Part shown: positions 1-30,188 of the stretch, piece by piece | How positions within the stretch are numbered: position 1 is the first letter of the stretch | Layout: the number at the start of each line of letters is the position of its first letter | DNA from: Trypanosoma brucei | Lineage: Eukaryota | DNA: 64,000 nucleotides | Direction: 5' to 3' | NCBI GenBank assembly: GCA_000002445.1 | Contig: CP000070.1 | Span: 1,824,001 to 1,888,000 of the forward strand | Program-made: the position numbers and the translations under genes | The notes under the pieces: model-generated | What the model saw: the letters and a program-made list of their open reading frames with translations, nothing else | What the model was told of the DNA's origin: nothing | Database searches by the model: none

Positions 1-2950
1 CTTCCTCTACTATCTTCAGAGACGACCGGAAAATGTCTCCCATCAGTCGCGCATGAATGAGACGCTCCGTAGGTCCGAGTCCCTGCTGAGAATGACTCAC
101 AACAGAGTAGAGATATTTCGCTGCCTCCACAAGCCGTTTTTCCTGTAACAGCACCTCCACAATCTTATCATCGGCACGGAGCCTCACTAACGTATCCATG
201 CCCATCTGCCACCACTCCTCACCCATATCCAGGAAGAGAAGAGCCATGGGTAATTGATCTGTTATGACGGTAGACCGCAGGAAATGCCTCAGAGGACCAC
301 AACCATCGGCGACGTATGGGAAAAGGCGCATGAGGTCCTGCTGAAGTCCACCTATCAGTGTAACACCGGTGCCCACCACACAACGAGCATATTCCAGTAG
401 GGCGTAAAAGAGGTACCGGCAGAAACACAAGTGCGCGGAAGCCGAACCGCTGGTCGAAGCAAGCGACCCCGCATCCATCGCATCCCCTGCGTACGTTTGT
501 GTACCCTCTCTCATGTGACGCATCGCAGAGTCAACCAAAGGAGTAAACACGTCACGCTCTAGTCCAACCTGACCAATGCTTTCCTCAAGTAGTGAAACAT
601 CACGACGATGGGTCGAGGCATGAGACGATGTACATGCCGCAAGGATGTCCTGTATCGTCAGAGAACTCCTGCAGCGCCACGGTGGGCAATACGGCAACGG
701 TCCATCCGTATCCTCCTCCGGAAGCCAATGGCAGAGCGCGGTAAGATTACCCGTAAGTAAAGCCGTACGGCTGAACTCCTGCTGGGGTATCAGAGAATAT
801 GTATCCCTCCCCGGTGTTCCACGTACAGTGGCCTCATGCAACGTGCTGGTTGAGGTTCGCGGACCCTTTATGCCGCATGGTGCCCGCAAGTGGTGATGAG
901 CCGCATGGTGAGCTGTGATTAACTCGAAAGTACGGCCCACAGCAGAAAGGTGTTTCCGCCTCAAAAGCATATCGTACACAAGCGAGTGAACAGCCTTCCC
1001 AGCACAGTACATACGATTAAGATAAAACTGCACACGCTGACAGGGCTGCGACATTACAGCAGCTAATGCAAAGGGATTAACACCAACGAGGCACACGGCA
1101 CCACTGCGGCGGTTGAGCAACAACGGCAGTGCACCAGAGACAAAATCGAGGTTGTAAATCTCATTATCTTCACACGAAATGGGATTGAACTTGTCCACGC
1201 GTTCCCCTGGGTGCAGTGAAAGTGCCGCACTAAGCAGCGGTTGCATAACAGGAATCGCCACTTCTGCCCCGGAAGCATCGTCACACATGCAAATACGGCC
1301 TTTTCTCACGCAGCTATTCCGAACTCTGTTCGCCAGCCATGAAAACCACGAGGACTGCGTGAACATCCTGCGCCCCGCTTGGTCATTCCCCTCTCCTGAA
1401 CTTATCGTATCCGACGAGATAACCCCTGAGCGACGCTGCATTTCAGATTCCCCAACTGAGCCTCGTGCACCAGAAGCGTTGGTATGCCATGAACAGTCAT
1501 GGTTGGCATCCTCTTCCCAATCCTCCTCGCAGTGAAGAATGTCAAATGCTGTCGATACGCCCAAACGCGGGGCATGCAAAACAACAAGATTATCGATCAC
1601 CTGAAGTGCGATCGGCTCTCGACGCATATGCAGTTGGAAGTCAGTGCGCAACACTGCGTGCATCGTGAAAGAACTAACACCCCCGCTCTTTCCATCATCC
1701 GCAGAAGGAACGTAGCGAAACAATGTAACGCCGCTACTCCTCCGTGAAAGGCTACAGACAAACAGCTGCTGGTACAGCGCAAGCAGAACAACAGGATATC
1801 GCACAGGAGGTGCGTTCATACATGCGGCAGCTGGGAGTAGTGAAGAGGCCGTCGTCTCCCGCTCCCCTTCAGCCGCCAGAAAGTTCTCCTCCAGCCTTAA
1901 TGACGGCAGCCTACGAAGCCCCTGTTCTCCCTGAAGCTCAAACACCTTTACGTGCCACGGTTTCAGCATATTAATTGACAGTATAGCCATAGCTGCTGGA
2001 CAGTAGTGCCAGTAGTCTGTGTGCGTCGTGTAGCGGCATAAAAGCACCCAGCCATCTTTGTTTTCAGCACTCTTAGCACCGTACGGTATCCCAAGGAGAT
2101 CTATGCTAATTGACGTGATGCAAAGGATCCGGCGAGTCGAAGGAGTGGCGGACTCACTGCTTTTTGTAGCACACCGCTGCTGCCGGTGCGGGTCACTCGC
2201 CGTAAACGGCGTAAGCAGCAAACCCCGATATGGCGCCTGACTTCCATTATCTCCTCTGTCCCCCCACACATTTTCCACCCAATAAAATGCACAGACGGGG
2301 TAAAAACCTTTGCGGAACCGCAGGTTTCGCGGTTTACACTGATAGGTTGCTATGAGGCTGTTTTCCCACTTGTTCTCCCCTTGCATTTGCAGGTGGCAAA
2401 GAAAGAAGAAAACAGCATCAGTGTTTAAACTAACCGCAATGAGATGAGCCGGGCCCGTAGCATTACTGCACACGGGAATGGGGCAGCGCTTGGCGTGGTG
2501 AATTACTGACTGGTCATCGCTGCTCTTGGGCACAATTCTGAATGAAACGGCGTCACCGCACAGCATGGGGTGGTGCCGCAGCCACTTCTCCTCCTCTGTA
2601 AACCGTTGCTGTTGATGTTTCTGGTCCCCGGGTTGGTCAAGTGAGGTTTCTATCCGATCCGCCGCCCCCTCCTCCTCCTCCTCATGCAACAATAACTGGT
2701 AAAAGCACACCTCGCGAGAATTATCACTGAAAATGACGACGTCATTTGCTACCTCATCAATGTATATTCGCGATACAACAATGTTAGGGGCCCCCTCCAC
2801 GCTACCGCCATTCTTACAGCCATTAGCAGCTGTACCGCTGGCACTGGTTTTGCCTTCGCGAACACCGACAGGACCCCCATGCGTTTTGAAGCGGAATATG
2901 GGCTTCTGGAACACTACGAATGGTGGGGTAGTGGACGCGTTGTACGACAT
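1..2950 (-). CDS. Hypothetical protein, partial; the C-terminus runs off the left window edge (at least 983 codons). Absent from the ORF track because there is no in-window stop
   Basis: I hand-translated the minus strand in the frame whose codons start at plus positions congruent to 2 mod 3. It starts at an ATG (plus 2948-2950, 'cat') just downstream of an in-frame TAG (plus 3053-3055, 'cta'). It stays open with no stop all the way to position 1. The N-terminus reads MSYNASTTPPFVVFQKPIFRF and the visible end reads ...FRSSLKIVEE. A run of about 980 sense codons cannot occur by chance. The sequence is complex, coding-like and GC-rich. The other two minus frames carry only short track ORFs. Confidence 0.6.
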   Translation of the reverse strand, partial: MSYNASTTPPFVVFQKPIFRFKTHGGPVGVREGKTSASGTAANGCKNGGSVEGAPNIVVSRIYIDEVANDVVIFSDNSREVCFYQLLLHEEEEEGAADRIETSLDQPGDQKHQQQRFTEEEKWLRHHPMLCGDAVSFRIVPKSSDDQSVIHHAKRCPIPVCSNATGPAHLIAVSLNTDAVFFFLCHLQMQGENKWENSLIATYQCKPRNLRFRKGFYPVCAFYWVENVWGDRGDNGSQAPYRGLLLTPFTASDPHRQQRCATKSSESATPSTRRILCITSISIDLLGIPYGAKSAENKDGWVLLCRYTTHTDYWHYCPAAMAILSINMLKPWHVKVFELQGEQGLRRLPSLRLEENFLAAEGERETTASSLLPAAACMNAPPVRYPVVLLALYQQLFVCSLSRRSSGVTLFRYVPSADDGKSGGVSSFTMHAVLRTDFQLHMRREPIALQVIDNLVVLHAPRLGVSTAFDILHCEEDWEEDANHDCSWHTNASGARGSVGESEMQRRSGVISSDTISSGEGNDQAGRRMFTQSSWFSWLANRVRNSCVRKGRICMCDDASGAEVAIPVMQPLLSAALSLHPGERVDKFNPISCEDNEIYNLDFVSGALPLLLNRRSGAVCLVGVNPFALAAVMSQPCQRVQFYLNRMYCAGKAVHSLVYDMLLRRKHLSAVGRTFELITAHHAAHHHLRAPCGIKGPRTSTSTLHEATVRGTPGRDTYSLIPQQEFSRTALLTGNLTALCHWLPEEDTDGPLPYCPPWRCRSSLTIQDILAACTSSHASTHRRDVSLLEESIGQVGLERDVFTPLVDSAMRHMREGTQTYAGDAMDAGSLASTSGSASAHLCFCRYLFYALLEYARCVVGTGVTLIGGLQQDLMRLFPYVADGCGPLRHFLRSTVITDQLPMALLFLDMGEEWWQMGMDTLVRLRADDKIVEVLLQEKRLVEAAKYLYSVVSHSQQGLGPTERLIHARLMGDIFRSSLKIVEE

Positions 2951-2955
2951 GCCTA

Positions 2956-3052
2956 TGGAAAAAAGCGAAACAAAAAAAAAAGCGGCAACAACAATAACAA
3001 AAATGAAAGCAACCAAAAATGAGTTGCTACTGGCGCTGCGGCCTAAAAGACC
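2956..3052 (-). promoter_or_regulatory. Candidate polypyrimidine tract and trans-splice acceptor region upstream of the left-edge gene. The plus strand is A-rich here, so the minus strand is T-rich
   Basis: Plus 2960-3020 is dominated by A and AAC runs (aaaaaaaaaagcggcaacaacaataacaaaaatgaaagcaaccaaaaatg). This gives a U/C-rich tract on the transcribed minus strand immediately 5' of the first ATG. Kinetoplastid trans-splicing uses such tracts. Confidence 0.3.
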
Positions 3053-3733
3053 CTATTATTTCTTTTCCCGCTTGCTGCTGTTAACGGGGGGTAGTTTCTT
3101 TTTCTTTTTCTCTCCCTCTGGGGGAAAGAGCGGGGATTCTTGACCTTCTCTCCCTCACACTTCTCTTTGCGACCTTTTCTTCCACCAGCGCACTCTGAAG
3201 CCAGTAGGAATTACTGATTGCAACATTGTGTTACGGGAAATGGGGAGACATGTACAAGTGTGTGTGGGTGTTTAAGCACAAAAGGGAAAGAATAGAGAGA
3301 AAACGGGCAGCAGTAGTAACCAGAGCGGTAAACGACAGACGACCAAAAAAAAAAAAACGAACGAACATGGGTATGCAAAAGCATTCAACAAGAGGCTCAC
3401 AGTAAAGAACCCCACCAACATGTTAAGTGCAAAAGCAGGGTTAGGGGGCGTGAAGACACGCTTCCTAACCTTCGCTAAAGAAATAACAGAGAAAAATAAA
3501 CTTCTGTTTTTTTTTTATTTAAAGAAAACAAAGACTAGCGGAAAAGTGTTATTAGACAAACGCTGCGCAGTGTATGAACCATACCCAAGACCACAAAAAC
3601 AAGACGTATCTTCACGTACGTGTATGTGTGCCCGCACCTAGGCATCTGCCCGAGCATCAACGTGTTTGTCATTACACGAAGGTATAGAAGAAAACATATG
3701 TGTACCAGACAAATGACGCATTACTTTTGTCAA

Positions 3734-4507
3734 CTAATAACTTAACTCACGTTTGAGGAAGGATTTGGGGCTCGTCAGCCAAGCCATATCATAGCTCTGT
3801 GACGACATAATGGCGTACAAAAACAGCATAGAGCATGTCGCCGGTGCAGTCATTGTATGAAACAGAATATCGAATGAGAGGGAAAGCAGGAACGCTGTTG
3901 TGAGCACTGGGAAGGCAGCGTAAAAGCGCCCCACCATGTAGCAACCACAGCAAAGCAGAAACACCTGAAACGCACCAGGAGTACGCCACCGGACCCAACT
4001 CCAGTATCGAGGCATCTCATCGACATTCCGTGCCATCCATTCGGGAAGAAACTTGTAGTAAAAATATTGCGTGTCACTTACTAAGTTACGATAGCGACGG
4101 TCTATGGTGGGGCTCTTTGTAATGATTTCGTATGCTTTATTGATCTGATTCAACCTCGATATGTCGCCGACACGATTTGGCTCCAGATCGGGGTGGACCT
4201 CACGCATAAGCTCATGGTAACGCAACCGTACCATATGAGTGGAAGCCCCGGGCTTCAAGCCAAGTACCCGCCACGGGTCATAACCCTCCGCCTCATACGC
4301 GGGTGTCTCTTCATTCGCCTGATCCGAACCCGACCTGCCTGATATATTTTTCAACACATCCTCCTCGCGTGGTTTACGACTATGGCGGGAGCTCTCAATA
4401 TCAGCAGGGACGCTGCCGTACGGAACTCCGCTGCCTCTACGGTAAATATGACCAATACACCCACATGGCATGGCGACGCGAGGGCGCCGTAATGCCACGC
4501 GCCACAT
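3734..4507 (-). CDS. DnaJ (J-domain) protein with C-terminal hydrophobic/transmembrane segments
   Basis: ATG start verified (plus 4505-4507 'cat'). The J-domain reads DPWRVLGLKPGASTHMVRLRYHELMREVHPDLEPNRVGDISRLNQINKAYEII and includes the diagnostic HPD tripeptide. The C-terminal half has hydrophobic stretches (FQVFLLCCGCYMVGRFYAAFPVLTTAFLLSLSF; LFLYAIM). Confidence 0.7.
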   Translation of the reverse strand: MWRVALRRPRVAMPCGCIGHIYRRGSGVPYGSVPADIESSRHSRKPREEDVLKNISGRSGSDQANEETPAYEAEGYDPWRVLGLKPGASTHMVRLRYHELMREVHPDLEPNRVGDISRLNQINKAYEIITKSPTIDRRYRNLVSDTQYFYYKFLPEWMARNVDEMPRYWSWVRWRTPGAFQVFLLCCGCYMVGRFYAAFPVLTTAFLLSLSFDILFHTMTAPATCSMLFLYAIMSSQSYDMAWLTSPKSFLKRELSY

Positions 4508-5564
4508 GGAATGTATAAACTTATGAGTAAATAGATAATAAAATAATGTGTACGGACAATTTTACTTGTGGTCGGTGGTTTTAATTACACGGTGGCGCCT
4601 TTGATTAAGTAACTAAGCGCACGAAGGGAAATCTCTTCACACGGTTTCTTTTTTTTTCCTTCTCGCCACTTCCTTTCCTTCGTTTTAACGTGTCAGTCAA
4701 CTCCCCGTTTAAACGAGCTGCGGAGACACGTAATAGAAGCTTGCGTGAATGACCCTTGTACTCAAGTGTAGAGCTAAGAAGCGTGCTCGTTGGCGCTCTA
4801 AAAAAAAAAAATTACGCCTCCACTTTGCTACTAGCAGCACGTCTCACTGTGCCCTTTTTTTTATTTAAAAAATCTTTTTGGAGGAAAAATCAGTTAAAGG
4901 TGGTGAAAGAATCAACGGCAGAGGGCGATGTATTTTTGTTTGACGTGCTTCGCATACGCACACACACGTGAACCTTGGTCACAAGTGGGAGAAGAACTTT
5001 AAGTGGATGACGGACATGTGTGCAACCTTCGGCAGTAAAATTATAACCTCAAAATAAATGGGTGTGCTTCACTCTTAGCGACGTCACCGCCAACAAAAAG
5101 AACACACGCACAAGCGCTACACCCCACCTCACGCCTTCCCATCGACGAAAAAAAATGTTCGTTGGGCACAAACATTAGTGTACACTTGCGTACACACCAA
5201 CATGCGCACACTTATTACTCGCAGACATTATCGTGGCGCACAACTTAAAAGCAGGAAGAGTGAGAGAGAGAGAGGTGTGTGTATATATAAATATATAAGT
5301 AAATGTTACATTCCGCCTCCGGCCACCCTACAACCGAGAGAGTGAAAACAACCAGACAAAGAGTAGGTGTGGCAAGTGCACACTCACACAAACATACAGC
5401 CCCATTCCAAAGCGCTCCACCACACAATTAACGTTAACGTCACCTTTTCCCTTTGGTACTTCCCCTTTCAGTCCTTCGTTGCCGGAATCTGCCTAACCTG
5501 CAAAGACGAAAGCACTCAAACTAGGCCACCTACGCAATCACCCAACAATATTGAGTCAAAGTAA

Positions 5565-8500
5565 CTACAAAATGAAGGTCCACAGAAGCCCGTGTATAAT
5601 CATTACAATGGCAGTTGCCAACCGCCGCTCATGATACAGCACAAATGCCCACAACGAGAGAACCAATGACACCCAGAGCCATTCCACTAACGGGCACAAG
5701 AACAGTAAAGCCACAAACAACATGGTAGTTAGTCCTATGCTTGCCGTATGAAGGTCCTGCGGACTGCGGAGAAGGAGCAAACGTCTCACTGGCAATTGCT
5801 GAAGCGCAGCGTAGCCCACAACAGCTGTAACCACATGATGTAAAAGAAGCAGTGGGTAATATATGAGCCCCCACAAGATTCGATACCAACTCGCGTACGG
5901 AGCCCCAGCATACGGCTCTTCCATAAGAAGAAGGCTGTGAGTAAAACTGACTACGGAACACTGCGGGTCGAGGTTTACCTGCGAAGGGGTCCCATCTCCC
6001 CTCGTTGACGAGTGTGGAATGGCAGGAACACATACTTTCAGGAACACGGAACCATTCACTGCGAGCGCTCCGCCGCTTTGGGGCTCATCACGTACGTAAT
6101 CGTGCACGCTATGTACGTGCGCCCGGCCGTAACGAACAAAATCGGCTGCCATCATCGCGTAAGCCCGAGCCGCCGCAGACGTGTTAACGTTAAACATAAT
6201 CTCCGGTATCATCTCCTCCCCCTGTGCCGTTTTAACATGCGTTTGCTTCAGCAGATGCCCTAAAGGCACGGAAACGCTGGTGAGTATGGCGGCAGGCCGA
6301 CGCGCGAGCGGTACCTCCCCACCAAGCATATCACGCAAACTATACACCACCAGCTCCATAACCAAGAAGGGTTGAACGCCCTGGTTATTCCAACTATGCC
6401 ATAGGGAGCGGAGAGCCACTAAAGCAGCGGTAGGGCACATGGTCGTGAAGCGCCACTCACGAGGCACAACCGCCGCGTCATAGAATGGGATCCGAAGCGG
6501 GGCAGAGAACGTAGACCTAGCAGGCTGTGACGACTGCAAATACCGTGTTTGTAGCATGGATGGCGACGACCACAGACCAGTGAGATCACCCGCAACAAAG
6601 AATGTGCTGTCGGCAAGTAGACAGCCTTGGCACTCTGTGGCTATGCCAGGAACAGCGAAGAGAATCTCCTCAATAGTACTGAAGGGACGAATTGGGGGAA
6701 GCAAGTTGGTACCATCGTCCACTACAAGCGAAGCACCCATGTAATACTTGTCATGCGTTCCGCTGCTCAATGTATCCTTCTGCATGTTTCGCTCAGAAGT
6801 AATGCGTACACCGATGAATGTGTCATTGTAGCGATAGATGAGCCGCTGTTGTTGTCCGTTCCCGGGGTCCTTAAGAACCTCAGAGAAAAAGTAACTGACA
6901 AAATGGGAACGGTAAACGCCACCTTGCTGCAGAAACAGGTGGTGGACACTGTCAAAACTGTGATGCTCCACAATGCTGAAACTGTTCAGTAACGCCACAC
7001 TATGTGGAGAACGCTTGCGCTTTCCAACGCCCGCACGGCTCCGTCCCTCGCTTTGCCCCGGTCGCAACCGTCTCGTGTTCAACGAAGACCCAGCATTAAC
7101 AACAGCCCATCCGCCCGATCCTTCGACGATTGGTGCATTACTGTCATCATCAGCATCGTAATCATCAGAACTGTAACCGTAGTCACCCGGATTGGCAGCA
7201 CCCTCTTCATCTTCACCCACGTGTTCGTTCCAAGTGTCCCCAATGAGTTCAACACCGAGCTCCACGCCTTTACGTCGCATATCAGCCTCACACAATAGCA
7301 GGGGGCGTTTCCTTCCCGTTGCCGCCCAAACCACCGGAAGGGAATCACCTTGAGAGGGTAGTGATCGCAGGTGCAGCAGCGCCAACGTAGGTCGAACCTC
7401 CACCACAAACGAAATAGTGGTCCGCCCTTGGGTGTGACTATCTTGTACAAGGGCATCACGCATTGTGATGCGGAGCAGTCGGGGAAGTTGAAGCCGCTTC
7501 AACAGCTGCCCACTTTCCTGCTGCTCGTTGTACTCAATCGGACTCAGCATCTGAAACGAAGGGCAAGGAGACAGCTGCAGCCGCAAATGCTTGCGTGTCG
7601 CAGAATCAACGCTCACATCCATCCCGGCACGCATCTGTGCCAAACAAGAGGCGAGGCCCACGCCTGCCGTAGAGCCCTCTGGGCCACCGCCCTCCTCTAT
7701 GACATCAGGATTCTGCAGCTCCTCTAACAAAACATTCTGCGGAGGAAACGCGCCTCCACTAACGAACCTTGTGCCGCTTACATTAATAAAAATGGTCGGA
7801 ACTCGCCCCTCAACCTCGCACTGCTTAATCGCTGGTGGCGACGCCCCCACCGCTGGCGGTTCGTCCATTACCTCAACACGGGAAAACAGCACGAGCGAAG
7901 CGGGCGCAGTGGATGTGACTGAAATGTTTGTTCCACATATCAAATCCTTGTGTAGAGCCGTCCGAAGAAATAAGTTGTGGGGAACCGAGAATGAAGCGTA
8001 GTAAGGTAACTTAACTCGGATGGCGTACACACCCTCACCCGTTACGCCCTCGTACAAACGTGCAGCGGCCACGAAGCGCTCCTCCGCTGTCATGGCAGCA
8101 GTTGCCGCAGTGAGCACCAGTTGTTGTTGCTGCTGAGCATGCTGCCGATCTTTTTCAGCCTTTTCCCGTCGTGCTTTTTCGATCTCATCAAGTTGACTCT
8201 TTGTTATTCTTCGGCGGGCGAGCGCCTGCTGCACTTCTGGTCGCAACCCCGTCACGTCAATACCCTCACGCGTGAGACGGAATTCCTCTCGTAGCGCTTT
8301 TAGTTGCTGTTCGACCACCTCCTGAGACACAAACTTCTGTTCCTTCGAAGGAACGAAGCTGGCACGCCGAGAACGCAGAGTGGATTCCGTATCATCAGGA
8401 AGTCTAAGAAGCTGCTCGAGCGAAGCAAAAAGTGGTTCGCATGTCACCTCAGCGCCGCCCACGTGGCGAACGTACTCTTCCCACTCGGGGGCAGTCCCCC

Positions 8501-11500
8501 CCGCGGCCCCGTCAGGATGGTTGACCTCAGTCCAATACGTAAGCACCTCCGACCCGCGCAGTGTACCACGGACACATTTGGCAAGGAAGCTCTCCATCAC
8601 CTCCCGCTCCTGATGGTGATCGTGACTACCTTCTCCCTTTTGACCAGCATATGGATGTGAAGACGTGGCGTGAAGAAAACTCGCCATGCGCCCTGGCTGA
8701 CTTCGGTCCAAGTGAAAGACGACGTCCACCGACCTGCTACCATTCTTCATTCCCGCCCCCCTGTCTGTCGCATTGCTCCTCTCCCAGTGCATATACGTCC
8801 TTTCACTAATATCCAACTCGGAGGCAACAATATCAGCAACGCCCAGCTGACCAAGCAATGGCCGCATTGCCCGATCCTCACGCACGAGGGTGGAGGGGTT
8901 CATAAAAGGCAAAAATTTTGACAGCCCATCAGATGCCTCAGCAGCAGGACGGGAGCGGAAGCGAAACCATGACGAATCCTCAGCCGACCCACCAACGCTC
9001 CAGGTAGAAGCCCCCTCAATCACTTCGCTCGGTACAAAATCCCCCCCAGTGTGATGGCATGGTTGTGACATGCTGAGGTGCTCCTGGGCGAGGAAAAGGT
9101 GATGCGATACCTCTTTCGACTGCAAGTGATGTTCTGTTGCTATGACAGTAAAGGAAATGCACTGTCTTGAGTTATCAACCTTGATGTCGGACCAGCGCGT
9201 GGTGCGTGCAACCCACCATGGTAACGAGCAGCCACTGGCCGTAAGCCGCTCAGCACTACTCTTAATAGAATTCTCAAAGTCACCGGGTGCGACAAGGTGC
9301 ACACCCAAATTCGACGACGAGGGCTTCTCCTGGGCCGCTACAGCATTAGAGGAGCTTGCTGGTTTAATACCTTCCGCATGAAGGCAGATAGAAAAGCGAC
9401 CGCGTCCAGAGTACGCGTCGCATTCGTGATCTAGTGTGGTATTCACTGAGAGAAATGCAGAAACACGCTCAATTGTCAGCAGTCGCTGTTGTACAAATGG
9501 GCAACGTTTCCTCAGCATAGCCCCAAACAACCGAGGTGATGCGTGAAGCTCATACTGCAAATGGGTGGTGCCAACCGGAAGATTCCCCACGAATAAGGCT
9601 GTCTCCTCCGGTGCATCTTCCGACCTTCCACTATTGTTCCCTCCGCCACCAATACCGCTTGTAGTCTGATTTTTATAGACGCGACCGACTCGTAAGGTTG
9701 GATCGCGAGCTGACAGTAAAGCTGACGCCCTACGGTCAGCGGGCTCTACGAGCACCCAGCCTAATGTTGAGCCCGTGATGAGCATCTCAACACTACTCGA
9801 CAATGTCACAAGGCGAGTTGTGCGAAGGTTTTCCGTTAAAACCAGCAGCCGCACCGTGTCATAATCCACCAAAATACCAGGTTGACCCTTCTGCCTTCGT
9901 TCATCGTCATCCGTTGTGCGTGCGCTGGCATATACGGACCAGCGTACGGTGACAATACCAAACGGAAGCCCCTTCACCACAGTGTGGGGACTGCTAACAT
10001 CCTCAAACTTAATACCACTAAAGTTCGTCTCGTCTGTCAGCGTAATGTTGTCCGCCGTTTGCACTGACACCACTTCCCACCTCGTAGTAAAGCTACAATT
10101 AATGGCTTGTGGTAGTGGGGCCGCGGTGAGTACAGCCGTGTCCCCACATACAGTCAACTCATTCTCCAACACTCGTGCGTGTGTCACATGCAAAGTTTCG
10201 GTGACGGTGACGTTGGGGCACACGTTGGGATGGACAGGATCAAGGTGCTGGTGAGACAACGTGTACATTCCTGGAACTCGAATGTTATTCAGAAGGACAG
10301 TCGCACCACCGGCACCGCGAAGGATCGCACGGGGGTGCGGTTGACGCAGCGGGATAATCTGTATCGAATCCAAAAGCCGCTGCGTACCGACTGAGGTGGT
10401 TTCCGCCGGCACGACAGTAACTGCCCGCCACTGCGATGTGCGACCATCAGCTGGAGCGTCAACATGCAAAACGGCACGCTTCCCTACAATCCAATGTGTT
10501 CTCATTCCGGCTGCCGAGCTTTGGTGCTTACCCAGCGGTTCTCCACCTTCTTTTCCTGCTGTTGTGCGTGATTGGGACCCAAAGGAATTACTCTGTCGTC
10601 CAGAGCGCCGCATCGGGCAGTTACCAGGGGCCCAATTGTCGCTCAACACACTGAAGTTCAAAGTTACGGGCGCCGGATGTACACGCTTTAGCATAAATGT
10701 CTCGGACTCCAAAGTTTCGGTTAGTGCATTGTACACTGTGAGTTTGCACGGAGTAGCACCCGCTGAACCTTGATACAGAATTGAAAACGTTGGGCTGCGC
10801 TTCTCCACCATCATCACGCCATCAGCAGTATTGCTGTCAGTGCTGGACCGCCCAGTAGCAGTATTTTCACACGTCCATGTAAAGTCGTAGTGGTATTTTG
10901 TGTGGAGCCACGGATGACGAGAAAAGTTAAAAGTGGATTCGCAGAACGCGATGTCGCGCACACCAATCACATCCACCAAACCACGTGGGTTGAGGGCAAG
11001 AAACGAAATATTCCCGGGCCGCGAAAGACACATTCCACGGCGCGCAAACTCTGCAGCAGCGCCCTTCCGAGAAGGCAGTTCAGCCGCTGCGGCAACGGCA
11101 GCTAAAGACAGTCGTACATTATACTGAAACGGGTAGTTCGAGCTGTTACTGAGCCCATGAAGCTGCATATATTGTCCTGTCTGCGAGTTGTTGTGTGAAA
11201 AGCGGGCATCACATTCACGATCAATGTTGTAATCGCGGTGGTGTCTTTCCATCTCCCAGTACGCTGCTTCGTCACTAAATATACCTTCATTGTTATCCTT
11301 CCCATTGGAGCCGTGTTCGTGCGAGCCACTGACACCAACAGTGGGTGGGCGGACGAAGCGGCGAAGCAGCAACGGTCCAGCAGTGGTGGCAGCGGCGCTA
11401 TCGTCGGGATCGGTGAAGGTATTGGGTTCGTCACTCTTCCCACTTCTATCGTCACTTACCGCAAGCCCTGTCCGTGCAAAGTGACTTGCCGTCACGTGCA

Positions 11501-14500
11501 GCTGATGGGCAGCATCATGTTCGTAAGCGAAATCCACCTCGTAATCTCCTTGTGAACCGGAATAGTTGAAAGTGTAGTGAACCGCAGCAGCGTACCCTGC
11601 GATAGGGATGACGCGACGCGCGAAATAACGCGGTTGTGCCTCGTGATGCACCATAGTTTCGTCAGTGGTGTTACTGTTGTCGCCACTGCGAGTAACGGTA
11701 TGTTGGCTCTCATCGCCTGTTGTGATACCACCATCCAGCCACTCCACAGAAGGCAACGCAAGCGTATCAATGGGTGACCCACTACCACGTCTATCCCCAC
11801 CGCTGAATTTATGAAACAGCAGATGTGGTGGTCGCTGACAGCGTCGCAGCGAAAACGTTTGTGTAACACTCCCCACCAAATTGCGTGCACTCCACATGGC
11901 TTCACACCACCGGTCCACCTCGACACCACATACAACCACTAAAGCATCAGCCGAGCCATTATACCCCTTCGTCAAATCTACTTTCTGTTTTTCCTTGGAG
12001 AAATATGGTGGAGCTGAGGCCTCTTGGCAGGGGCGGATGTCCCAGCGAACCTCCTCATCCTTCTGTGGTTCCCGTGGCGGTGACAGCGCAACACAACCGT
12101 CCTCCGTGTACACCGGCACGAACTCTGGCGCGACAGGTGGTGCAGGGACGGCAACGAGAGAAACAATGTACTCTACAACGCGTGGGGGACAGCGTGATGT
12201 ATAAGGGGCAGCTAGTAACTTATCCTGCACCGCTTCTCCCGGATCCTCCGCTATGAACTGTAGCGTCCCCTCTGGTAGCACTTGCCGAATGTTGGGTACA
12301 GCGGATGTGTTCAGTTCCGCGGCGTAAGTCTCGTCGACGGATATCAAGCTGATTGGAGGGTTGACAACCCACCGGCCCGTAATCTGTATATCTGTGTCTT
12401 TATCCCTCTCATCTAAGCTTTCCTCATGCTGACCAATTACAGGATGCGGAGGACGAACGGTCAACCGACGTTCATGCATCGGTAGTTTGACGTCAACCCT
12501 TCTAGGCAAAGCAGACATTCGGCGCACAATGAGGACCGACGGCGAGCGTACCTCAATAACTGTGAGCCTCCCATCAGAAGAGATAACACGTGAAAGCGAG
12601 GGATCGAGAAAGCCTCCAAATGGTCCCTCATTATCATTGTCATCATCAACAACATCACTTCCCTGACGTTGCCGCAGTTGCTCGATGTGCTGTAGATATG
12701 AAGTATCCACTTCAACACGCACGACCCACATCAGCTCCGCTACCCCCCGCTTCAACATCTGCAATACACCGAAGTGGCTGCCTCCCATTCCCGTAGCGAT
12801 CCGACAGGGGCCAACGCCGCTTTCAGTGCACTTAAAGTGCCCCTCTACAACCTCCTGTGTACCACCCGACCGGGCCAAATCTTCCCATGGCAAATCCCCC
12901 GCGAGACGTATAAGCATCCGCTGCCGAGACCGCATCGTCTCTAACAGCCCTCTAAGCTCAAACGCCTCTAGCGAAATCCTGTCATCACAAACTGTAACTG
13001 GAGAAGTGACCGGCTCCAGTAGCAATGCCTGGACCGCCCACAACTCCTGCATCTCCAGTAGCACCGGCTCACACACCTCGTCCATGTCACGCACGTAGTA
13101 CGACAGTACGTTGCGGCCAACGGTAAGCGGGTACCAAACAAACGCTTCGGAGAATGGGTTGTGGGGTACATGGGGTGGTGAACCATCGCTCCCACGCACC
13201 TCATCGCTGGTTTGTGTACGGATCCAATACCCGGTATGGGATGGGCGCCCTTCATCAGGTAGCATGGCAAACGCTTGTTTCAGCTCTTCTCTTTCACGCG
13301 TGATGCGTGAAAGACGCAAGCGCCGGCCGACGCCAAAGTGAGGTTGTGTAACGTTAGAAAACTGCGCTGCTTTGCCTTCCAGTGTAAGAGGCAACCGTAA
13401 AACGAAAAGGCCGCTTAAGGTTTGCGTGGCAGCGCCACGAGAAACTGTTACCATCACGTTGTAAGTATGGTGCGGTATGACACTGAAGTAGCCGCTGGTG
13501 GTTATCTGTGGTTGAACCATTCCAGAGCCTTCCACCTCCTCTCTTAGTGCGGTATACAGGGAGACATTAAGTACAGCATTGGCTGCCCCTGTTACTGCAG
13601 TGGTATCTGTGATAATCCAATGCACGAGTGTTGCTGGAAGCAGTGCCGGTTGTAGAGTGAGAGACGCCGCCCACCCACCGTTGGCTAACTGTATAACAGG
13701 CTGACGAAGGACCTTCCCTTTAACATCCATTTCGGGTGTCACACTTCGGAGCTTTTGTCCCACACCACAATGCGATCCCAACCCAACTATAGATATTGGT
13801 GGTAGTGTGTCTGGCCGAGCGTGAAGCACAGGCATTACAAGCAGCGTGTGGGGGCACTTGCACTTTATTGCGACGTTAGAGACCCTGAGCTGGATATCGG
13901 CGGACGTACCGACAGCACCATCGACAGCACTGCCACTACCAACGCTACTATTACCAGTACGGGAACCGAGAGGCATGTCAAAGCCCCCACGGAGACCCGA
14001 AAGGGGGAGATTTAACGCAGTGGTTGTTGGCGGCTGTTGGAGCGGTACGCGACGAATGCCAGGCCCGACAGCACCGGTCACAAGCACAATTACGTCACCA
14101 TCACCATCATTACCCCGCTGCATCTCCTCAGCGGAAGGCACATGTGAACTTTCGTAACGGTGTGGCGGCTGTCGCTGAGTGTCAAATATAACAACCCTAT
14201 CACGGGGAAACATCCTCCGCTTCTCCCCAAGAGTTAAGGTATGAAACGGCGTGGACCGCAAGAGATCGTACAGGAAAGTATCGTAGCGAGATTGTTCCCG
14301 TAGCAACCGCCCGTTGAACTTATAACCGCAACACAAATTCAACTGAAGCGTGAGGTTGGCTGATACAAGGAAGCTTGCCGGCGTGAGTACGTCAGGGGCC
14401 GTGAAGGTTCCTGTGGCCCACACCATAGAGGCATGTGGACAGCCGTGATGTACCGAACATGGGGAAGATGAAACATTCGGCACGAGAAACTCGGACGATT

Positions 14501-14657
14501 TGAACAACTGCTCATTCAGTTCAGAAAGGTTATGTGGCGTCGCCTCAACTGATGCCTCCACAAATGCGTGTGTGGCGAGTGCGGCGATAATTACCGACAC
14601 CGTAAGAAATGCAAACGGCGGCCTCGACAGAACCCCATCTCCAACAACGCGCGTCAT
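5565..14657 (-). CDS. Very large (3030 aa) hypothetical protein. It has an N-terminal signal-peptide-like segment, a huge hydrophilic region and a C-terminal cluster of transmembrane helices
   Basis: A single uninterrupted 9093-nt ORF with a verified ATG (plus 14655-14657 'cat'). The N-terminus MTRVVGDGVLSRPPFAFLTVSVIIAALATHAFVEAS is signal-peptide-like. The C-terminus carries several hydrophobic helices (LIYYPLLLLHHVVTAVVGYAAL; TTMLFVALLFLCPLVEWLWVSLVLSLWAFVLY; LATAIVMIIHGLLWTFIL). No family motif was recognised by eye. Confidence 0.8.
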   Translation of the reverse strand: MTRVVGDGVLSRPPFAFLTVSVIIAALATHAFVEASVEATPHNLSELNEQLFKSSEFLVPNVSSSPCSVHHGCPHASMVWATGTFTAPDVLTPASFLVSANLTLQLNLCCGYKFNGRLLREQSRYDTFLYDLLRSTPFHTLTLGEKRRMFPRDRVVIFDTQRQPPHRYESSHVPSAEEMQRGNDGDGDVIVLVTGAVGPGIRRVPLQQPPTTTALNLPLSGLRGGFDMPLGSRTGNSSVGSGSAVDGAVGTSADIQLRVSNVAIKCKCPHTLLVMPVLHARPDTLPPISIVGLGSHCGVGQKLRSVTPEMDVKGKVLRQPVIQLANGGWAASLTLQPALLPATLVHWIITDTTAVTGAANAVLNVSLYTALREEVEGSGMVQPQITTSGYFSVIPHHTYNVMVTVSRGAATQTLSGLFVLRLPLTLEGKAAQFSNVTQPHFGVGRRLRLSRITREREELKQAFAMLPDEGRPSHTGYWIRTQTSDEVRGSDGSPPHVPHNPFSEAFVWYPLTVGRNVLSYYVRDMDEVCEPVLLEMQELWAVQALLLEPVTSPVTVCDDRISLEAFELRGLLETMRSRQRMLIRLAGDLPWEDLARSGGTQEVVEGHFKCTESGVGPCRIATGMGGSHFGVLQMLKRGVAELMWVVRVEVDTSYLQHIEQLRQRQGSDVVDDDNDNEGPFGGFLDPSLSRVISSDGRLTVIEVRSPSVLIVRRMSALPRRVDVKLPMHERRLTVRPPHPVIGQHEESLDERDKDTDIQITGRWVVNPPISLISVDETYAAELNTSAVPNIRQVLPEGTLQFIAEDPGEAVQDKLLAAPYTSRCPPRVVEYIVSLVAVPAPPVAPEFVPVYTEDGCVALSPPREPQKDEEVRWDIRPCQEASAPPYFSKEKQKVDLTKGYNGSADALVVVCGVEVDRWCEAMWSARNLVGSVTQTFSLRRCQRPPHLLFHKFSGGDRRGSGSPIDTLALPSVEWLDGGITTGDESQHTVTRSGDNSNTTDETMVHHEAQPRYFARRVIPIAGYAAAVHYTFNYSGSQGDYEVDFAYEHDAAHQLHVTASHFARTGLAVSDDRSGKSDEPNTFTDPDDSAAATTAGPLLLRRFVRPPTVGVSGSHEHGSNGKDNNEGIFSDEAAYWEMERHHRDYNIDRECDARFSHNNSQTGQYMQLHGLSNSSNYPFQYNVRLSLAAVAAAAELPSRKGAAAEFARRGMCLSRPGNISFLALNPRGLVDVIGVRDIAFCESTFNFSRHPWLHTKYHYDFTWTCENTATGRSSTDSNTADGVMMVEKRSPTFSILYQGSAGATPCKLTVYNALTETLESETFMLKRVHPAPVTLNFSVLSDNWAPGNCPMRRSGRQSNSFGSQSRTTAGKEGGEPLGKHQSSAAGMRTHWIVGKRAVLHVDAPADGRTSQWRAVTVVPAETTSVGTQRLLDSIQIIPLRQPHPRAILRGAGGATVLLNNIRVPGMYTLSHQHLDPVHPNVCPNVTVTETLHVTHARVLENELTVCGDTAVLTAAPLPQAINCSFTTRWEVVSVQTADNITLTDETNFSGIKFEDVSSPHTVVKGLPFGIVTVRWSVYASARTTDDDERRQKGQPGILVDYDTVRLLVLTENLRTTRLVTLSSSVEMLITGSTLGWVLVEPADRRASALLSARDPTLRVGRVYKNQTTSGIGGGGNNSGRSEDAPEETALFVGNLPVGTTHLQYELHASPRLFGAMLRKRCPFVQQRLLTIERVSAFLSVNTTLDHECDAYSGRGRFSICLHAEGIKPASSSNAVAAQEKPSSSNLGVHLVAPGDFENSIKSSAERLTASGCSLPWWVARTTRWSDIKVDNSRQCISFTVIATEHHLQSKEVSHHLFLAQEHLSMSQPCHHTGGDFVPSEVIEGASTWSVGGSAEDSSWFRFRSRPAAEASDGLSKFLPFMNPSTLVREDRAMRPLLGQLGVADIVASELDISERTYMHWERSNATDRGAGMKNGSRSVDVVFHLDRSQPGRMASFLHATSSHPYAGQKGEGSHDHHQEREVMESFLAKCVRGTLRGSEVLTYWTEVNHPDGAAGGTAPEWEEYVRHVGGAEVTCEPLFASLEQLLRLPDDTESTLRSRRASFVPSKEQKFVSQEVVEQQLKALREEFRLTREGIDVTGLRPEVQQALARRRITKSQLDEIEKARREKAEKDRQHAQQQQQLVLTAATAAMTAEERFVAAARLYEGVTGEGVYAIRVKLPYYASFSVPHNLFLRTALHKDLICGTNISVTSTAPASLVLFSRVEVMDEPPAVGASPPAIKQCEVEGRVPTIFINVSGTRFVSGGAFPPQNVLLEELQNPDVIEEGGGPEGSTAGVGLASCLAQMRAGMDVSVDSATRKHLRLQLSPCPSFQMLSPIEYNEQQESGQLLKRLQLPRLLRITMRDALVQDSHTQGRTTISFVVEVRPTLALLHLRSLPSQGDSLPVVWAATGRKRPLLLCEADMRRKGVELGVELIGDTWNEHVGEDEEGAANPGDYGYSSDDYDADDDSNAPIVEGSGGWAVVNAGSSLNTRRLRPGQSEGRSRAGVGKRKRSPHSVALLNSFSIVEHHSFDSVHHLFLQQGGVYRSHFVSYFFSEVLKDPGNGQQQRLIYRYNDTFIGVRITSERNMQKDTLSSGTHDKYYMGASLVVDDGTNLLPPIRPFSTIEEILFAVPGIATECQGCLLADSTFFVAGDLTGLWSSPSMLQTRYLQSSQPARSTFSAPLRIPFYDAAVVPREWRFTTMCPTAALVALRSLWHSWNNQGVQPFLVMELVVYSLRDMLGGEVPLARRPAAILTSVSVPLGHLLKQTHVKTAQGEEMIPEIMFNVNTSAAARAYAMMAADFVRYGRAHVHSVHDYVRDEPQSGGALAVNGSVFLKVCVPAIPHSSTRGDGTPSQVNLDPQCSVVSFTHSLLLMEEPYAGAPYASWYRILWGLIYYPLLLLHHVVTAVVGYAALQQLPVRRLLLLRSPQDLHTASIGLTTMLFVALLFLCPLVEWLWVSLVLSLWAFVLYHERRLATAIVMIIHGLLWTFIL

Positions 14658-14744
14658 CGCTAAGGAAGGGAAACGACTTCTATCACGTAAATAAACCTTC
14701 GTTCCCTTATCTTTTCTATGTTTACTTCGCTCGCTATGTTAGTG

Positions 14745-14790
14745 CCACCCTCAAAGACAACAACAACAACAATAATAATAATAATAATGG
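14745..14790 (-). promoter_or_regulatory. Candidate polypyrimidine tract for trans-splicing of the 3030-aa gene mRNA. Plus strand is (CAA)n(TAA)n; minus strand is (TTG)n(TTA)n
   Basis: Plus 14751-14790 reads caacaacaacaacaataataataataataatggtaatg, which is pyrimidine-rich on the minus strand. It lies about 90-130 nt upstream of the ATG at 14657. Confidence 0.3.
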
Positions 14791-15181
14791 TAATGTACGC
14801 AGCACTTGAGTGTGGGTGTGCTGTTACGTTCCCTCTCCCCTTTTCTTCTTTCCCCCCCCCTTTGCTTTGCTTTTTTGCTTCCGTCCCTCTTCTTCTTTTG
14901 GAACTTTTTCCACTCCTCCTGTCACCTCACCTTCAATCCCAGCGGTGCGCCTCTCAGGAGCTTGAAATGGATCAAAGTCCAAAGAAGTGACTTCAATTTC
15001 AGAAGAAGAAAAAAATGAAAAAAAAAAGGTGGACAAACGAAAGGATGAAAATGAGAAGTGAGCGATTAATCCAACAACAACAAAAAAAAAGTGTATGGAG
15101 GCGTTGAAGCAAGGTGAAAGAACCAAAAACAAAAAATAAACCCTTCCTTTTTGTTTGTTGTTGTTTTTTTTTTTGCCACGC

Positions 15182-15199
15182 GTGTGTGTGTGTGTGTGT
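15182..15199. repeat. (GT)9 microsatellite
   Basis: gtgtgtgtgtgtgtgtgt read directly. Confidence 0.8.
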
Positions 15200-16760
15200 T
15201 GGTGCATATGGATTAGAAGTTACGGAATCGGCTCATGGGAATTTAGTGAGCAAAATAAAAGGAAGATAACCGCATATTTGCCTGAGGAGGGGGGGGGCGT
15301 ATCCTCGGATTTCTCAGCCCTCATTTGTCGGCGGGATGGTGGTTTTCCTTTTTTTTTTTGTCCCACCCCCGCCACCAAAGCACATGTTTTCCTTTATTAT
15401 TATTGTTATTATTATTGTTATTATTTTACGATTGCTTTGTTGTTTTTGTTGTTTCCGTCTTACATGCATTTACTTATGAGTGCGAAGTTAACTCAACGCC
15501 ATACCGCAATGCAAACAATCCCAAGCAGAAGATTACCGACAACACAAATAGAAGAGAAATAAAGAGAGAGAGAAAGACAAAAGTAGAGGTAGAACTAAGT
15601 AATTTAAAAAAAAAGTGAAAAATCATTCTTCAAACAAAAAAATGAACAAATGAATGAATAGACGGGTGAACATATTTATAAAAGGGGGAAGGAAAAGAGG
15701 AAAGAAGAAAAAGGGATTAAATTAAGAATAGAAGTGTTTTCGCTACGAAGCAATAAGTTGCTCTTCCTTTTGTGACTATTATTTATTTATTTATTTTTCA
15801 CTTTCCCTCTCTCTCTCTTTTTTTTTTTTTTTTTGAGTGGGAAAAAGGTGCCGGTGGCACGTTAGGCGGAATCAAACAACAGCCACCAAATGAGGGTGGA
15901 GGAAGTCAAAAAAAGAAAAAAGAAAAAGGAACAAAAGAAAAGAAAAGAAAAGGAAGAAAACATAAACGTAAACGTGAACGTAATTCATATATTTTTTTTC
16001 TATTTGTTACCATAAAAGGGGGAAGAAAAAGAAGTAGAAAAATTTTAAAAAAAAAAGGAAGCGTAACATTACTTAACCCTGAAGCATGATGTGGCACCAC
16101 AGTTGTCAACACCTCTTCAACCCGTGACTAATCACTTGAAATACACATCCCACATGCAAAATATATATATATTTTTTTTTAGTTTTTTCTCTTCGTTTTT
16201 TTTGTTGTTTCTGTTTAATTTTGGCTTAGGTGATACGACTACCTTTTGTGCTTAATTCTTTATTTTGTTTTATCTGTTTGTTTCTTTTCGTTGCGCTTTT
16301 TATATATATTTCGTTGCCGTAACATATGCACGAAGACAAGAAAAAATAAAAAGAGGAGCATAGAAAAGAGTTATAACAACCAAAACGCCAAAATAAAACA
16401 AAGACAACCAAAAAAGAAAAAAAAGGAAAAAAAATGACGAAAGCGCAAATAAACAAAACAAATAAATAAATCATGAAGAAACGGGAGGAAGACGAAAGGA
16501 ACCCGGCCGATTGAACGACAGATTTGTAACATCTGAAGCGCTTAAAACAAAAAAAGAGGAAAGATGGAAAAAAAAAAGAAAAAGAAACACATGAGGGGCG
16601 TAGCCGCCATTTGCGACGTTCACATCATCCTTTAGGGTTTCATCACCATGTTCCAAATTCATATAAACGCATCACCAGCGCTATGTCTTTTTAAAAAATT
16701 AAAAATAAAAAATAAAAATAGAGATGGAAAGCAGGGAGAGAGAAGACGAAAAAAAAAAAA

Positions 16761-16778
16761 GAGAGAGAGAGAGAGAGA
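16761..16778. repeat. (GA)9 microsatellite within a poly-A-rich tract
   Basis: gagagagagagagagaga read directly. Confidence 0.8.
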
Positions 16779-18178: not shown

Positions 18179-18200
18179 ATATATATATATATATATATAT
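18179..18200. repeat. (TA)n microsatellite
   Basis: atatatatatatatatatatat read directly. A second (TA)n lies at about 18369-18391 and a (CA)10 at about 18262-18281. Confidence 0.8.
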
Positions 18201-18412
18201 TCGTGGAGTAAATCCAACAACTCACTCATTTCTGCACTTACTTTCGCTCCTCTTCCCCATGCACACACACACACACACACACGCTTCTCTGCTGTATCTA
18301 CTTGTATTTTAGCTACGCTGAATGCAAAAAAAAAAAAAGAAAAAAATGGAAAGGGAAAACATGCACAAATATATATATATATATATATATACCCGTTCAT
18401 GTACACCTTTGC

Positions 18413-25722: not shown

Positions 25723-25754
<32 letters not shown>

Positions 25755-30166: not shown

Positions 30167-30188
<22 letters not shown>
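30167..30188. repeat. (GT)11 microsatellite. A (CA)9 lies at about 30831-30848
   Basis: gtgtgtgtgtgtgtgtgtgtgt read directly. Confidence 0.8.

What the first reader, a model, noticed from the sequence alone, without database searches (positions are those of the whole stretch)
1..3055. Hidden 983-codon minus-strand gene at the left edge, missing from the ORF track
The third minus-strand frame (codons starting at plus coordinates congruent to 2 mod 3) is open from the ATG at 2948-2950 down to base 1. That ATG is preceded by a TAG at 3053-3055. I translated the whole stretch by hand and met no stop: MSYNASTTPPFVVF ... LKIVEE at the window edge. The ORF track lists only short ORFs in the other frames, apparently because it drops ORFs with no in-window stop. 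Without this gene the first 3 kb would look like an inexplicable ORF-free complex region and might be misread as a pseudogene or a convergent strand-switch region. With it, the minus-strand array continues to the left boundary.
Basis: seen in the sequence. Interest (0 to 1): 0.5.

Follow-up and report, generated by a model that had tools for sequence, protein, structure and literature searches.

The report
Edge-truncated trypanosome RMC1 (Mic1) gene
The open frame at the left edge is real: it holds the first 983 of 1069 codons of an already annotated Trypanosoma brucei gene (most likely Tb927.7.6650), the parasite's version of RMC1, so it is an ordinary gene cut by the window edge.

Summary
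The minus-strand frame is open from the TAG at 3053-3055 to the left edge: 1017 sense codons, against 32-55 stops in each of the other five frames (chance about 3e-20). The ATG at 2948-2950 gives 983 codons with no stop in the window.

The 983 residues are 100% identical to the first 983 of a 1069-aa T. equiperdum protein named "Mic1-like". They are also 100% identical, from Met129 on, to T. b. brucei TREU927 XP_846285.1. So 86 codons lie beyond the edge.

Exact matches of neighbouring genes place the window on TREU927 chromosome 7. By accession order the gene is Tb927.7.6650.

It belongs to the RMC1/Mic1/Bulli family. RMC1 is the third subunit of the Mon1-Ccz1 exchange factor that activates Rab7.
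- Pfam RMC1_C passes its cut-off.
- A profile-profile alignment to canonical RMC1 is full length (E 2.5e-64).
- The Ccz1-contacting Gln/Asp/Arg triad is kept.

No functional study in trypanosomes was found. This is a known, low-interest gene.

The parts
1..2950 (-). Partial CDS: codons 1-983 of 1069 (plus two bases of codon 984) of the T. brucei RMC1/Mic1 orthologue, most likely Tb927.7.6650. The 3' end lies beyond the window.
   Evidence: Open frame. 100% identical to T. equiperdum SCU65642.1 residues 1-983 and to TREU927 XP_846285.1 from Met129 on. Orthologues in T. congolense, T. vivax, T. cruzi and T. rangeli.
2948..2950 (-). Start codon (Met1), conserved across Trypanosoma orthologues.
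   Evidence: Met1 is an invariant column. The motif PPFVVFQKPxFRF follows directly in T. congolense, T. cruzi and T. rangeli. Residues 1-128 are 50% identical to T. cruzi, against 39% for the rest of the protein. There is no in-frame ATG between this codon and the TAG at 3053-3055.
3053..3055 (-). In-frame TAG that closes the frame upstream of the start codon.
2564..2566 (-). Met129, the start of the shorter deposited TREU927 model (XP_846285.1, 941 aa).
2953..2991 (-). Polypyrimidine tract (2955-2991) with AG at 2953-2954, a candidate trans-splice acceptor 2 nt before the ATG. This is inference from sequence only.
3214..3367 (-). Upstream polypyrimidine tracts (3273-3313 and 3337-3367) and the next AG at 3214-3215, an alternative candidate trans-splice acceptor. 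There is no ATG between it and the start codon. This is inference from sequence only.
1541..2782 (-). Residues about 57-470: the region that aligns with the N-terminal beta-propeller part of canonical RMC1, with lineage-specific insertions. It includes the family motif ALQVIDNLVVLH...AFDI (residues about 447-471).
   Evidence: hhalign. Short collinear HMMER match to human RMC1 residues 258-292 and fly Bulli residues 262-293. The low-confidence AF2 model is strand-rich here.
104..298 (-). Residues 885-949: Pfam RMC1_C (PF07035) match, within the C-terminal alpha-solenoid region.
   Evidence: E 7.1e-10, 39.2 bits against a cut-off of 26.9. All 7 trypanosome orthologues match.
182..208 (-). Q915, D919 and R923 (WWQMGMDTLVR). 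These are the counterparts of fly Bulli Q535/D539/R543 and of the human Q549/D553/Arg triad, which contact Ccz1.
   Evidence: Read from the alignments, with positions. The mutagenesis evidence for these residues is in PMC10193976 and PMC10235969.

Best explanation
Window 1-2950 (minus strand) encodes the first 983 of 1069 residues of the Trypanosoma brucei orthologue of RMC1 (also called C18orf8, Mic1, or Bulli in flies). The window is TREU927 chromosome 7, and the gene is most likely Tb927.7.6650. Shown here: it is a real, conserved coding sequence that starts at ATG 2948-2950 and is homologous to RMC1 along its whole length. [quoted passage not shown] The solenoid would dock on longin domains 2 and 3 (LD2/LD3) of Ccz1, and on LD3 of Mon1, through the conserved Gln/Asp/Arg helix (Q915/D919/R923). 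That would stabilise and position the Mon1-Ccz1 exchange factor that loads GTP onto Rab7 at late endosomes, and so support traffic to the lysosome and autophagy. The trypanosome protein is about 400 residues longer than animal RMC1 because of lineage-specific insertions of unknown role.
For: - **Coding:** 1017 open codons (P about 3e-20) and a codon-position GC pattern like the neighbouring genes.
- **Conservation:** orthologues at 55% (T. congolense) and 37-40% identity (T. vivax, T. cruzi, T. rangeli), collinear from Met1.
- **Identity of the locus:** the gene matches annotated Trypanozoon proteins exactly. Neighbouring genes exact-match TREU927 XP_846286, XP_846287, XP_846290, XP_846294 and XP_846296.
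- **Family:** Pfam RMC1_C is above its gathering score in all 7 orthologues. The profile hits solved human RMC1 (9l0d_C, E 5.9e-8) and fly Bulli (8c7g_A, E 2.1e-4) in two collinear stretches.
- **Wider search:** an exhaustive HMMER search gives 131 hits. The distant ones, about 650-800 aa long, carry both RMC1_N and RMC1_C.
- **Full-length homology:** hhalign of the kinetoplastid profile against the canonical RMC1 profile gives probability 100%, E 2.5e-64, 631 columns, query 29-1001 against template 28-662 of 678.
- **Contact residues:** the Ccz1-contact residues that abolish binding when mutated in fly and human (PMC10193976; PMC10235969) are conserved as Q915/D919/R923.
- **Literature:** RMC1 is reported as pan-eukaryotic (PMC11513930). 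Human RMC1 (Q96DM3) was reported to hit Tb927.7.6650 by BLAST (PMC7002101).
Against: - Pfam RMC1_N is not detected directly in any trypanosome orthologue. The RMC1_C match covers only profile positions 133-200 of 248.
- The AlphaFold2 model from the 7-sequence alignment is unusable (mean pLDDT 34.5), so the propeller/solenoid fold is not shown structurally here.
- Other partner-contact positions are only partly kept. Human H519/Q520/Y524 correspond to R888/H889/S893, and L576/R580/R583 correspond to V941/K945/Y948 (read).
- I did not check that T. brucei has Mon1 and Ccz1 with the matching Arg.
- I found no experimental work on this protein in trypanosomes.
- The assignment to Tb927.7.6650 rests on accession order plus one published BLAST table, not on a direct look-up.
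Confidence: 0.85

Rival explanations
1. The gene is real, but translation starts at Met129 (window 2564-2566), as in the deposited TREU927 model XP_846285.1 (941 aa). On this view the 128 upstream codons are 5' UTR that happens to be open.
For: The GenBank/UniProt TREU927 entry (Q57Y64) is 941 aa and begins MLCGDAVSF. Trans-splice sites cannot be read from DNA alone, and AG dinucleotides also exist inside the first codons.
Against: Residues 1-128 are 50% identical to T. cruzi, against 39% for the rest. Met1 and the PPFVVFQKPxFRF and RIYIDEVANDVV blocks align in four species. hhalign places residues 57-135 opposite the start of the canonical RMC1 N-terminal domain. The T. b. gambiense and T. 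equiperdum models use the long form. Both candidate acceptor AGs (2953-2954 and 3214-3215) make ATG 2948-2950 the first AUG, with no upstream ATG in between. In Bulli an N-terminal extension closes the propeller (PMC10193976), so removing it would probably break the fold; this last point is inference.
Confidence: 0.05
2. The open frame is a chance feature or a decaying pseudogene, not an expressed gene.
For: No stop or 3' end is visible in the window, and no expression data are available here.
Against: P about 3e-20 for the open run. The frame stays intact and collinear in at least six Trypanosoma species, and relatives occur across eukaryotes. Against a 99%-identical T. brucei strain there are 26 nucleotide differences, none of them a stop or an indel, with 16 at third positions and only 2 at second positions.
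Confidence: 0.01
3. It is an RMC1 homologue by descent, but in kinetoplastids it no longer acts, or does not only act, with Mon1-Ccz1. The roughly 400 residues of insertions would give it a different partner set or role.
For: The protein is 1069 aa, against about 650 aa in animals. Several long insertions show up in the hhalign alignment. The matching hits from Leishmania relatives and other long proteins are larger still (1300-1850 aa) and barely detectable. Human RMC1 gave no BLAST hit in L. mexicana (PMC7002101). Two of the three mutated contact triads are only partly conserved. Human RMC1 also localises to mitochondria independently of Mon1-Ccz1 (PMC10235969).
Against: The most conserved block of the whole family, including the Q/D/R helix that binds Ccz1, is retained. 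Homology is full length. RMC1 co-occurs with MON1 and CCZ1 in most eukaryotic genomes (PMC11513930).
Confidence: 0.09

Closest known systems
Human RMC1 (C18orf8/MIC1; PDB 9l0d chain C), the third subunit of the MON1-CCZ1 RAB7A exchange factor
   Same: Full-length collinear profile homology. Direct profile hit at E 5.9e-8 in two collinear stretches. The VVDNLxVxH...FDI motif at the end of the propeller region and the QLxxDMLxRL helix are conserved. The Q549/D553/Arg triad corresponds to Q915/D919/R923.
   Different: About 18% identity in the aligned columns. The trypanosome protein has about 400 extra residues, in insertions after residues about 85, 228, 470, 690 and 810. Pfam RMC1_N is not detected directly. 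The positions matching human H519/Q520/Y524 and R583 are not conserved. No complex or function has been shown in trypanosomes.
Drosophila Bulli / Mic1 domain-containing protein (PDB 8c7g chain A, 8jbe)
   Same: Profile hit at E 2.1e-4. Bulli Q535 and D539, whose mutation abolishes Mon1-Ccz1 binding (PMC10193976), align with Q915 and D919.
   Different: As for human RMC1. The propeller-foot and solenoid-shin architecture is only inferred here, because the model has pLDDT 34.5.
Annotated Trypanozoon orthologues: T. equiperdum SCU65642.1 ('Colon cancer-associated protein Mic1-like, putative', 1069 aa), T. b. gambiense XP_011775176.1 (1069 aa) and T. b. brucei TREU927 XP_846285.1 / Q57Y64 (941 aa)
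   Same: 100%, 99% and 100% identity over the shared residues. The TREU927 entry is this very gene.
   Different: The window holds only codons 1-983. The TREU927 entry starts 128 codons further in than the conserved start found here.
WDPCP (CPLANE complex) and HPS6 (BLOC-2), the other propeller/solenoid accessory subunits linked with tri-longin RabGEFs
   Same: The same general architecture and a proposed distant relationship to RMC1 (PMC10193976; PMC11513930).
   Different: Neither family appeared among the Pfam or PDB matches. All distant hits that I scanned in Pfam and that matched any family matched RMC1.

Membership tests
RMC1 / Mic1 / Bulli (regulator of the MON1-CCZ1 complex) | C-terminal RMC1_C (PF07035) domain above Pfam's gathering score | tested here: met
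   39.2 bits against a cut-off of 26.9, E 7.1e-10, residues 885-949. All 7 Trypanosoma orthologues match. The match is partial: profile positions 133-200 of 248.
RMC1 / Mic1 / Bulli (regulator of the MON1-CCZ1 complex) | N-terminal RMC1_N (PF21029) region, that is, homology to the propeller half as well as the C-terminus | tested here: met
   hmmscan does not detect PF21029 directly. However, hhalign of the kinetoplastid profile (A4) against a profile of 31 canonical RMC1 proteins (A3) aligns query 29-1001 with template 28-662 of 678, probability 100%, E 2.5e-64. Of the six A3 members I scanned in Pfam, five carry PF21029. A short collinear HMMER match to human residues 258-292 also supports this.
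RMC1 / Mic1 / Bulli (regulator of the MON1-CCZ1 complex) | Beta-propeller plus alpha-solenoid fold | tested here: inconclusive
   The AlphaFold2 model from the 7-sequence alignment has mean pLDDT 34.5 and pTM 0.28. Its secondary structure is strand-rich up to about residue 430 and helical from about residue 626 on, which is consistent but not reliable. No fold search was run on it.
RMC1 / Mic1 / Bulli (regulator of the MON1-CCZ1 complex) | Conserved polar residues of the solenoid helix that bind Ccz1 (fly Q535/D539/R543; human Q549/D553/Arg) | tested here: met
   They correspond to Q915/D919/R923 in WWQMGMDTLVR, read from the HMMER alignments with positions. Q and D are at least 90% conserved in the canonical alignment. 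The mutagenesis evidence is in PMC10193976 and PMC10235969.
RMC1 / Mic1 / Bulli (regulator of the MON1-CCZ1 complex) | Other mutated contact triads (human H519/Q520/Y524 towards Ccz1; L576/R580/R583 towards Mon1) | tested here: inconclusive
   The aligned residues are R888/H889/S893 and V941/K945/Y948, so these triads are partly conserved in character only (alignment; for the human and fly residues).
RMC1 / Mic1 / Bulli (regulator of the MON1-CCZ1 complex) | Mon1 and Ccz1 partners encoded in the same genome | not tested
   I had no Mon1 or Ccz1 query sequence and no eukaryotic genome collection in these tools. The literature states that Mon1 and Ccz1 occur in all eukaryotes surveyed (PMC10235969) and that RMC1 co-occurs with them in most genomes (PMC11513930). 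T. brucei was not checked specifically.
RMC1 / Mic1 / Bulli (regulator of the MON1-CCZ1 complex) | Physical membership of a trimeric complex and a requirement for Rab7 activation | not testable with these tools
   This needs pull-down or knock-down experiments in T. brucei. No such study turned up in the paper library.

The most novel reading that the evidence does not exclude
The kinetoplastid RMC1 carries about 400 residues of lineage-specific insertions, and its relatives in the Leishmania group and other long hits are far more divergent (1300-1850 aa). It might therefore have gained a different or additional role, such as new partners or a Mon1-Ccz1-independent function. Alternatively, it could be a convenient system for showing by experiment that the trimeric Rab7 exchange factor predates animals, contrary to the 2023 claim that RMC1 is restricted to metazoans.
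Probability: 0.1. Interest if true: 0.35.

Novelty: already known. Interest (0 to 1): 0.1.

Why it matters
For the genome scan, this shows that the first 3 kb are an ordinary coding region. They are not a strand-switch region, a pseudogene or a gene desert, and the apparent gap comes from an ORF lister that drops edge-truncated frames.

Two minor by-products:
- The conserved start codon extends the deposited TREU927 protein model by 128 residues. Those residues align with the beginning of the RMC1 propeller domain.
- A member of Euglenozoa keeps the Ccz1-binding residues of RMC1. That agrees with the pan-eukaryotic distribution reported in 2024 (PMC11513930) rather than the 'metazoan-only' statement of 2023 (PMC10235969).

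Neither point is new enough to rank highly.

Tried and rejected
- **Structure prediction:** AlphaFold2 on full-length P0001 with the 7-sequence alignment gave mean pLDDT 34.5. That is too poor for a fold search, so none was run.
- **Word-indexed searches:** the searches found only Trypanosoma orthologues plus one weak hit in Porcisia, a relative of Leishmania. The exhaustive HMMER search was needed to reach canonical RMC1 proteins.
- **Plus-strand ORFs:** the five ORFs of 80-136 aa inside 1-3143 have no Pfam match at E <= 0.1, and I treat them as spurious.
- **Other features:** there are no tandem repeats in 1-5600, and no Rfam family or tRNA anywhere in the window.
- **Upstream extension:** one Logan gene call (P0010, 1091 aa) starts 22 codons earlier. 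It relies on an ATG in another strain. In this window that codon is TTG inside a polypyrimidine tract, so I rejected the extension.
- **Supplementary data:** the files of PMC11513930 that would list the T. brucei RMC1, MON1 and CCZ1 accessions are not held.
- **Literature:** searches for RMC1, Mon1, Ccz1 or Tb927.7.6650 in trypanosomes found no functional study.
Full report
**1. The observation**

Translating window 1-3055 on the minus strand gives a single stop, the TAG at 3053-3055. After it come 1017 sense codons down to base 2.

The other five frames of the same stretch contain 32-55 stops each. With the local composition, an open run of this length has a probability of about 3e-20. GC content by codon position (0.59/0.46/0.54) matches the other long minus-strand genes of the window.

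The ORF lister leaves the frame out because it omits ORFs that run off an end. No other long frame is cut by either end of the window.

**2. What it is**

The 983 residues are 100% identical to residues 1-983 of T. equiperdum SCU65642.1, a 1069-aa protein named 'Colon cancer-associated protein Mic1-like, putative'. They are 99% identical to T. b. gambiense XP_011775176.1 (1069 aa). From residue 129 onward they are 100% identical to T. b. brucei TREU927 XP_846285.1 / UniProt Q57Y64 (941 aa, 'Mic1 domain-containing protein').

A 99%-identical contig from another T. brucei-group sample (L001) shows the rest of the gene: 86 more codons and a TGA. Against that contig the in-window CDS has 26 substitutions, no indels and no stops. 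Sixteen of the substitutions are at third codon positions and two at second positions.

Eight complete neighbouring ORFs were looked up by exact sequence. Several match only TREU927 entries, on a 2,205,233-bp contig: XP_846287, XP_846290 (named Tb927.7.6700), XP_846294 and XP_846296. So the window is TREU927 chromosome 7.

XP_846289 is named Tb927.7.6690 and XP_846290 is Tb927.7.6700. Counting back in serial order makes XP_846285 equal to Tb927.7.6650. This is an inference from accession order. It agrees with a published table in which human RMC1 (Q96DM3) hits Tb927.7.6650 by BLAST (PMC7002101).

**3. Start codon**

It is the same start as in the T. b. gambiense and T. equiperdum models.

Met1 and the blocks PPFVVFQKPxFRF and RIYIDEVANDVV align in T. 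congolense, T. cruzi and T. rangeli. Residues 1-128 are 50% identical to T. cruzi, against 39% for the remainder. The profile-profile alignment puts residues 57-135 opposite the beginning of the canonical RMC1 N-terminal domain.

On the minus strand a polypyrimidine tract (2955-2991) ends in an AG at 2953-2954. Further tracts (3273-3367) are followed by an AG at 3214-3215. There is no ATG between 3214 and 2950, so either acceptor would make this the first AUG. That part is inference from sequence only.

The long model is therefore the better one, and the 941-aa entry is N-terminally truncated.

**4. Family**

- **Pfam:** RMC1_C (PF07035) matches residues 885-949 at 39.2 bits against a cut-off of 26.9, and it matches all seven Trypanosoma orthologues. 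RMC1_N is not detected directly.
- **Solved structures:** a profile of the seven orthologues hits human RMC1 (9l0d_C, E 5.9e-8) and Drosophila Bulli (8c7g_A, E 2.1e-4). Each hit has two collinear stretches, a VVDNLxVxH...FDI motif and the C-terminal helices.
- **Exhaustive search:** an HMMER search of 1.84 billion representatives gives 131 hits at E <= 1e-3. Of the six distant hits of about 650-800 aa that I scanned in Pfam, five carry both RMC1_N and RMC1_C and one carries RMC1_C only.
- **Profile-profile alignment:** hhalign of a 14-sequence kinetoplastid profile against a 31-sequence canonical RMC1 profile gives probability 100%, E 2.5e-64 and 631 aligned columns. It covers query 29-1001 and template 28-662 of 678, so homology is full length. 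The extra roughly 400 residues sit in insertions.
- **Caveat:** the canonical set was chosen from hits of the trypanosome profile, so the C-terminal similarity is partly there by selection. The N-terminal alignment is additional evidence.

**5. Likely mechanism (inferred from the family)**

In flies and humans, RMC1/Bulli is a propeller 'foot' plus a solenoid 'shin'. The solenoid binds longin domains 2 and 3 (LD2/LD3) of Ccz1 and LD3 of Mon1, on the side opposite the catalytic site. Loss of RMC1 destabilises Mon1 and Ccz1 and lowers Rab7-GTP (PMC10193976; PMC10235969).

The residues whose mutation abolishes binding are fly Q535/D539(/R543) and the human Q549/D553/Arg triad. They align with Q915/D919/R923 of the T. 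brucei protein (window 182-208). Q and D are among the few positions that are at least 90% conserved in the canonical alignment.

Two other mutated triads are only partly conserved: R888/H889/S893 and V941/K945/Y948.

I therefore expect the protein to be the third subunit of the trypanosome Mon1-Ccz1 Rab7 exchange factor, acting in late-endosome-to-lysosome traffic and autophagy. This is not shown here. Mon1 and Ccz1 of T. brucei were not examined, the AlphaFold2 model is unusable (pLDDT 34.5), and no experimental paper on the trypanosome protein was found.

**6. Surroundings**

Upstream on the same strand lie a DnaJ-domain gene (3734-4507) and a 3030-aa conserved hypothetical gene (5565-14657). 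Thirteen of the 15 ORFs of 200 aa or more in the window are on the minus strand. The two plus-strand ones lie inside minus-strand ORFs. This fits a single polycistronic unit running to the left edge.

The short plus-strand ORFs inside 1-3143 have no family match. There are no tandem repeats in 1-5600 and no Rfam family or tRNA in the window.

**7. Verdict**

Two small points go beyond that. First, the conserved start codon corrects the deposited TREU927 model by 128 residues. Second, the retention of Ccz1-contact residues in a euglenozoan agrees with the pan-eukaryotic distribution of RMC1 (PMC11513930), against the earlier statement that RMC1 is metazoan-specific (PMC10235969).

Novelty: already known. 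Interest: low.

Noticed in passing
window 2564-2950 (-): The deposited TREU927 protein XP_846285.1 / Q57Y64 (941 aa) starts at Met129. The conserved start is 128 codons upstream, as in the T. b. gambiense and T. equiperdum models (1069 aa).
   Followed up: yes
window 23788-25254 (-): The 488-aa ORF exactly matches a T. equiperdum protein, and T. b. gambiense has a 488-aa model in the same cluster. The TREU927 entry for this gene (Tb927.7.6690, XP_846289.1, 'T. brucei spp.-specific protein') is only 402 aa. This may be another start-codon discrepancy.
   Followed up: no
window 43621-47331 (-): The 1236-aa ORF (UniProt name 'Kinesin', XP_846296.1) is modelled as 1134 aa in T. b. gambiense and 1127 aa in a Logan assembly. 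The gene models differ between strains.
   Followed up: no
window 14658-18412, 25255-29001, 29824-32510, 47332-52708: These are long gaps of 2.7-5.4 kb with no ORF of 200 aa or more. They include very AT-rich 2-kb blocks (GC 0.30-0.37 at 16-18, 26-28, 30-32 and 50-52 kb), against about 0.53-0.55 in coding blocks. The gaps between 21 and 32 kb flank the small 'T. brucei spp.-specific' genes Tb927.7.6690 and Tb927.7.6700.
   Followed up: no
window 5565-14657 (-): A 3030-aa conserved hypothetical protein (XP_846287.1) has no Pfam domain at E <= 0.001.
   Followed up: no
P0005 (T. rangeli orthologue, not in the window): NCBI and UniRef name the T. rangeli orthologue of this RMC1-family protein 'putative NADH-dependent fumarate reductase'. 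Its only precomputed Pfam domain is RMC1_C, so this looks like an annotation error.
   Followed up: partly
P0011, P0029, P0035, P0036, P0046, P0048 (not in the window): Several weak hits to the trypanosome profile are very long (1300-1850 aa), among them one from Porcisia hertigi, a relative of Leishmania. The one I scanned (P0029) has no Pfam match. Human RMC1 gave no BLAST hit in L. mexicana (PMC7002101). RMC1 in the Leishmania group may be extremely divergent.
   Followed up: partly
window 3014-3016 (-) and protein P0010: One Logan gene call in another strain extends this ORF by 22 codons through the polypyrimidine tract (MVAFIFVIVAAAFFF...). In this window the corresponding codon is TTG, not ATG, so the extension does not apply.
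   Followed up: yes
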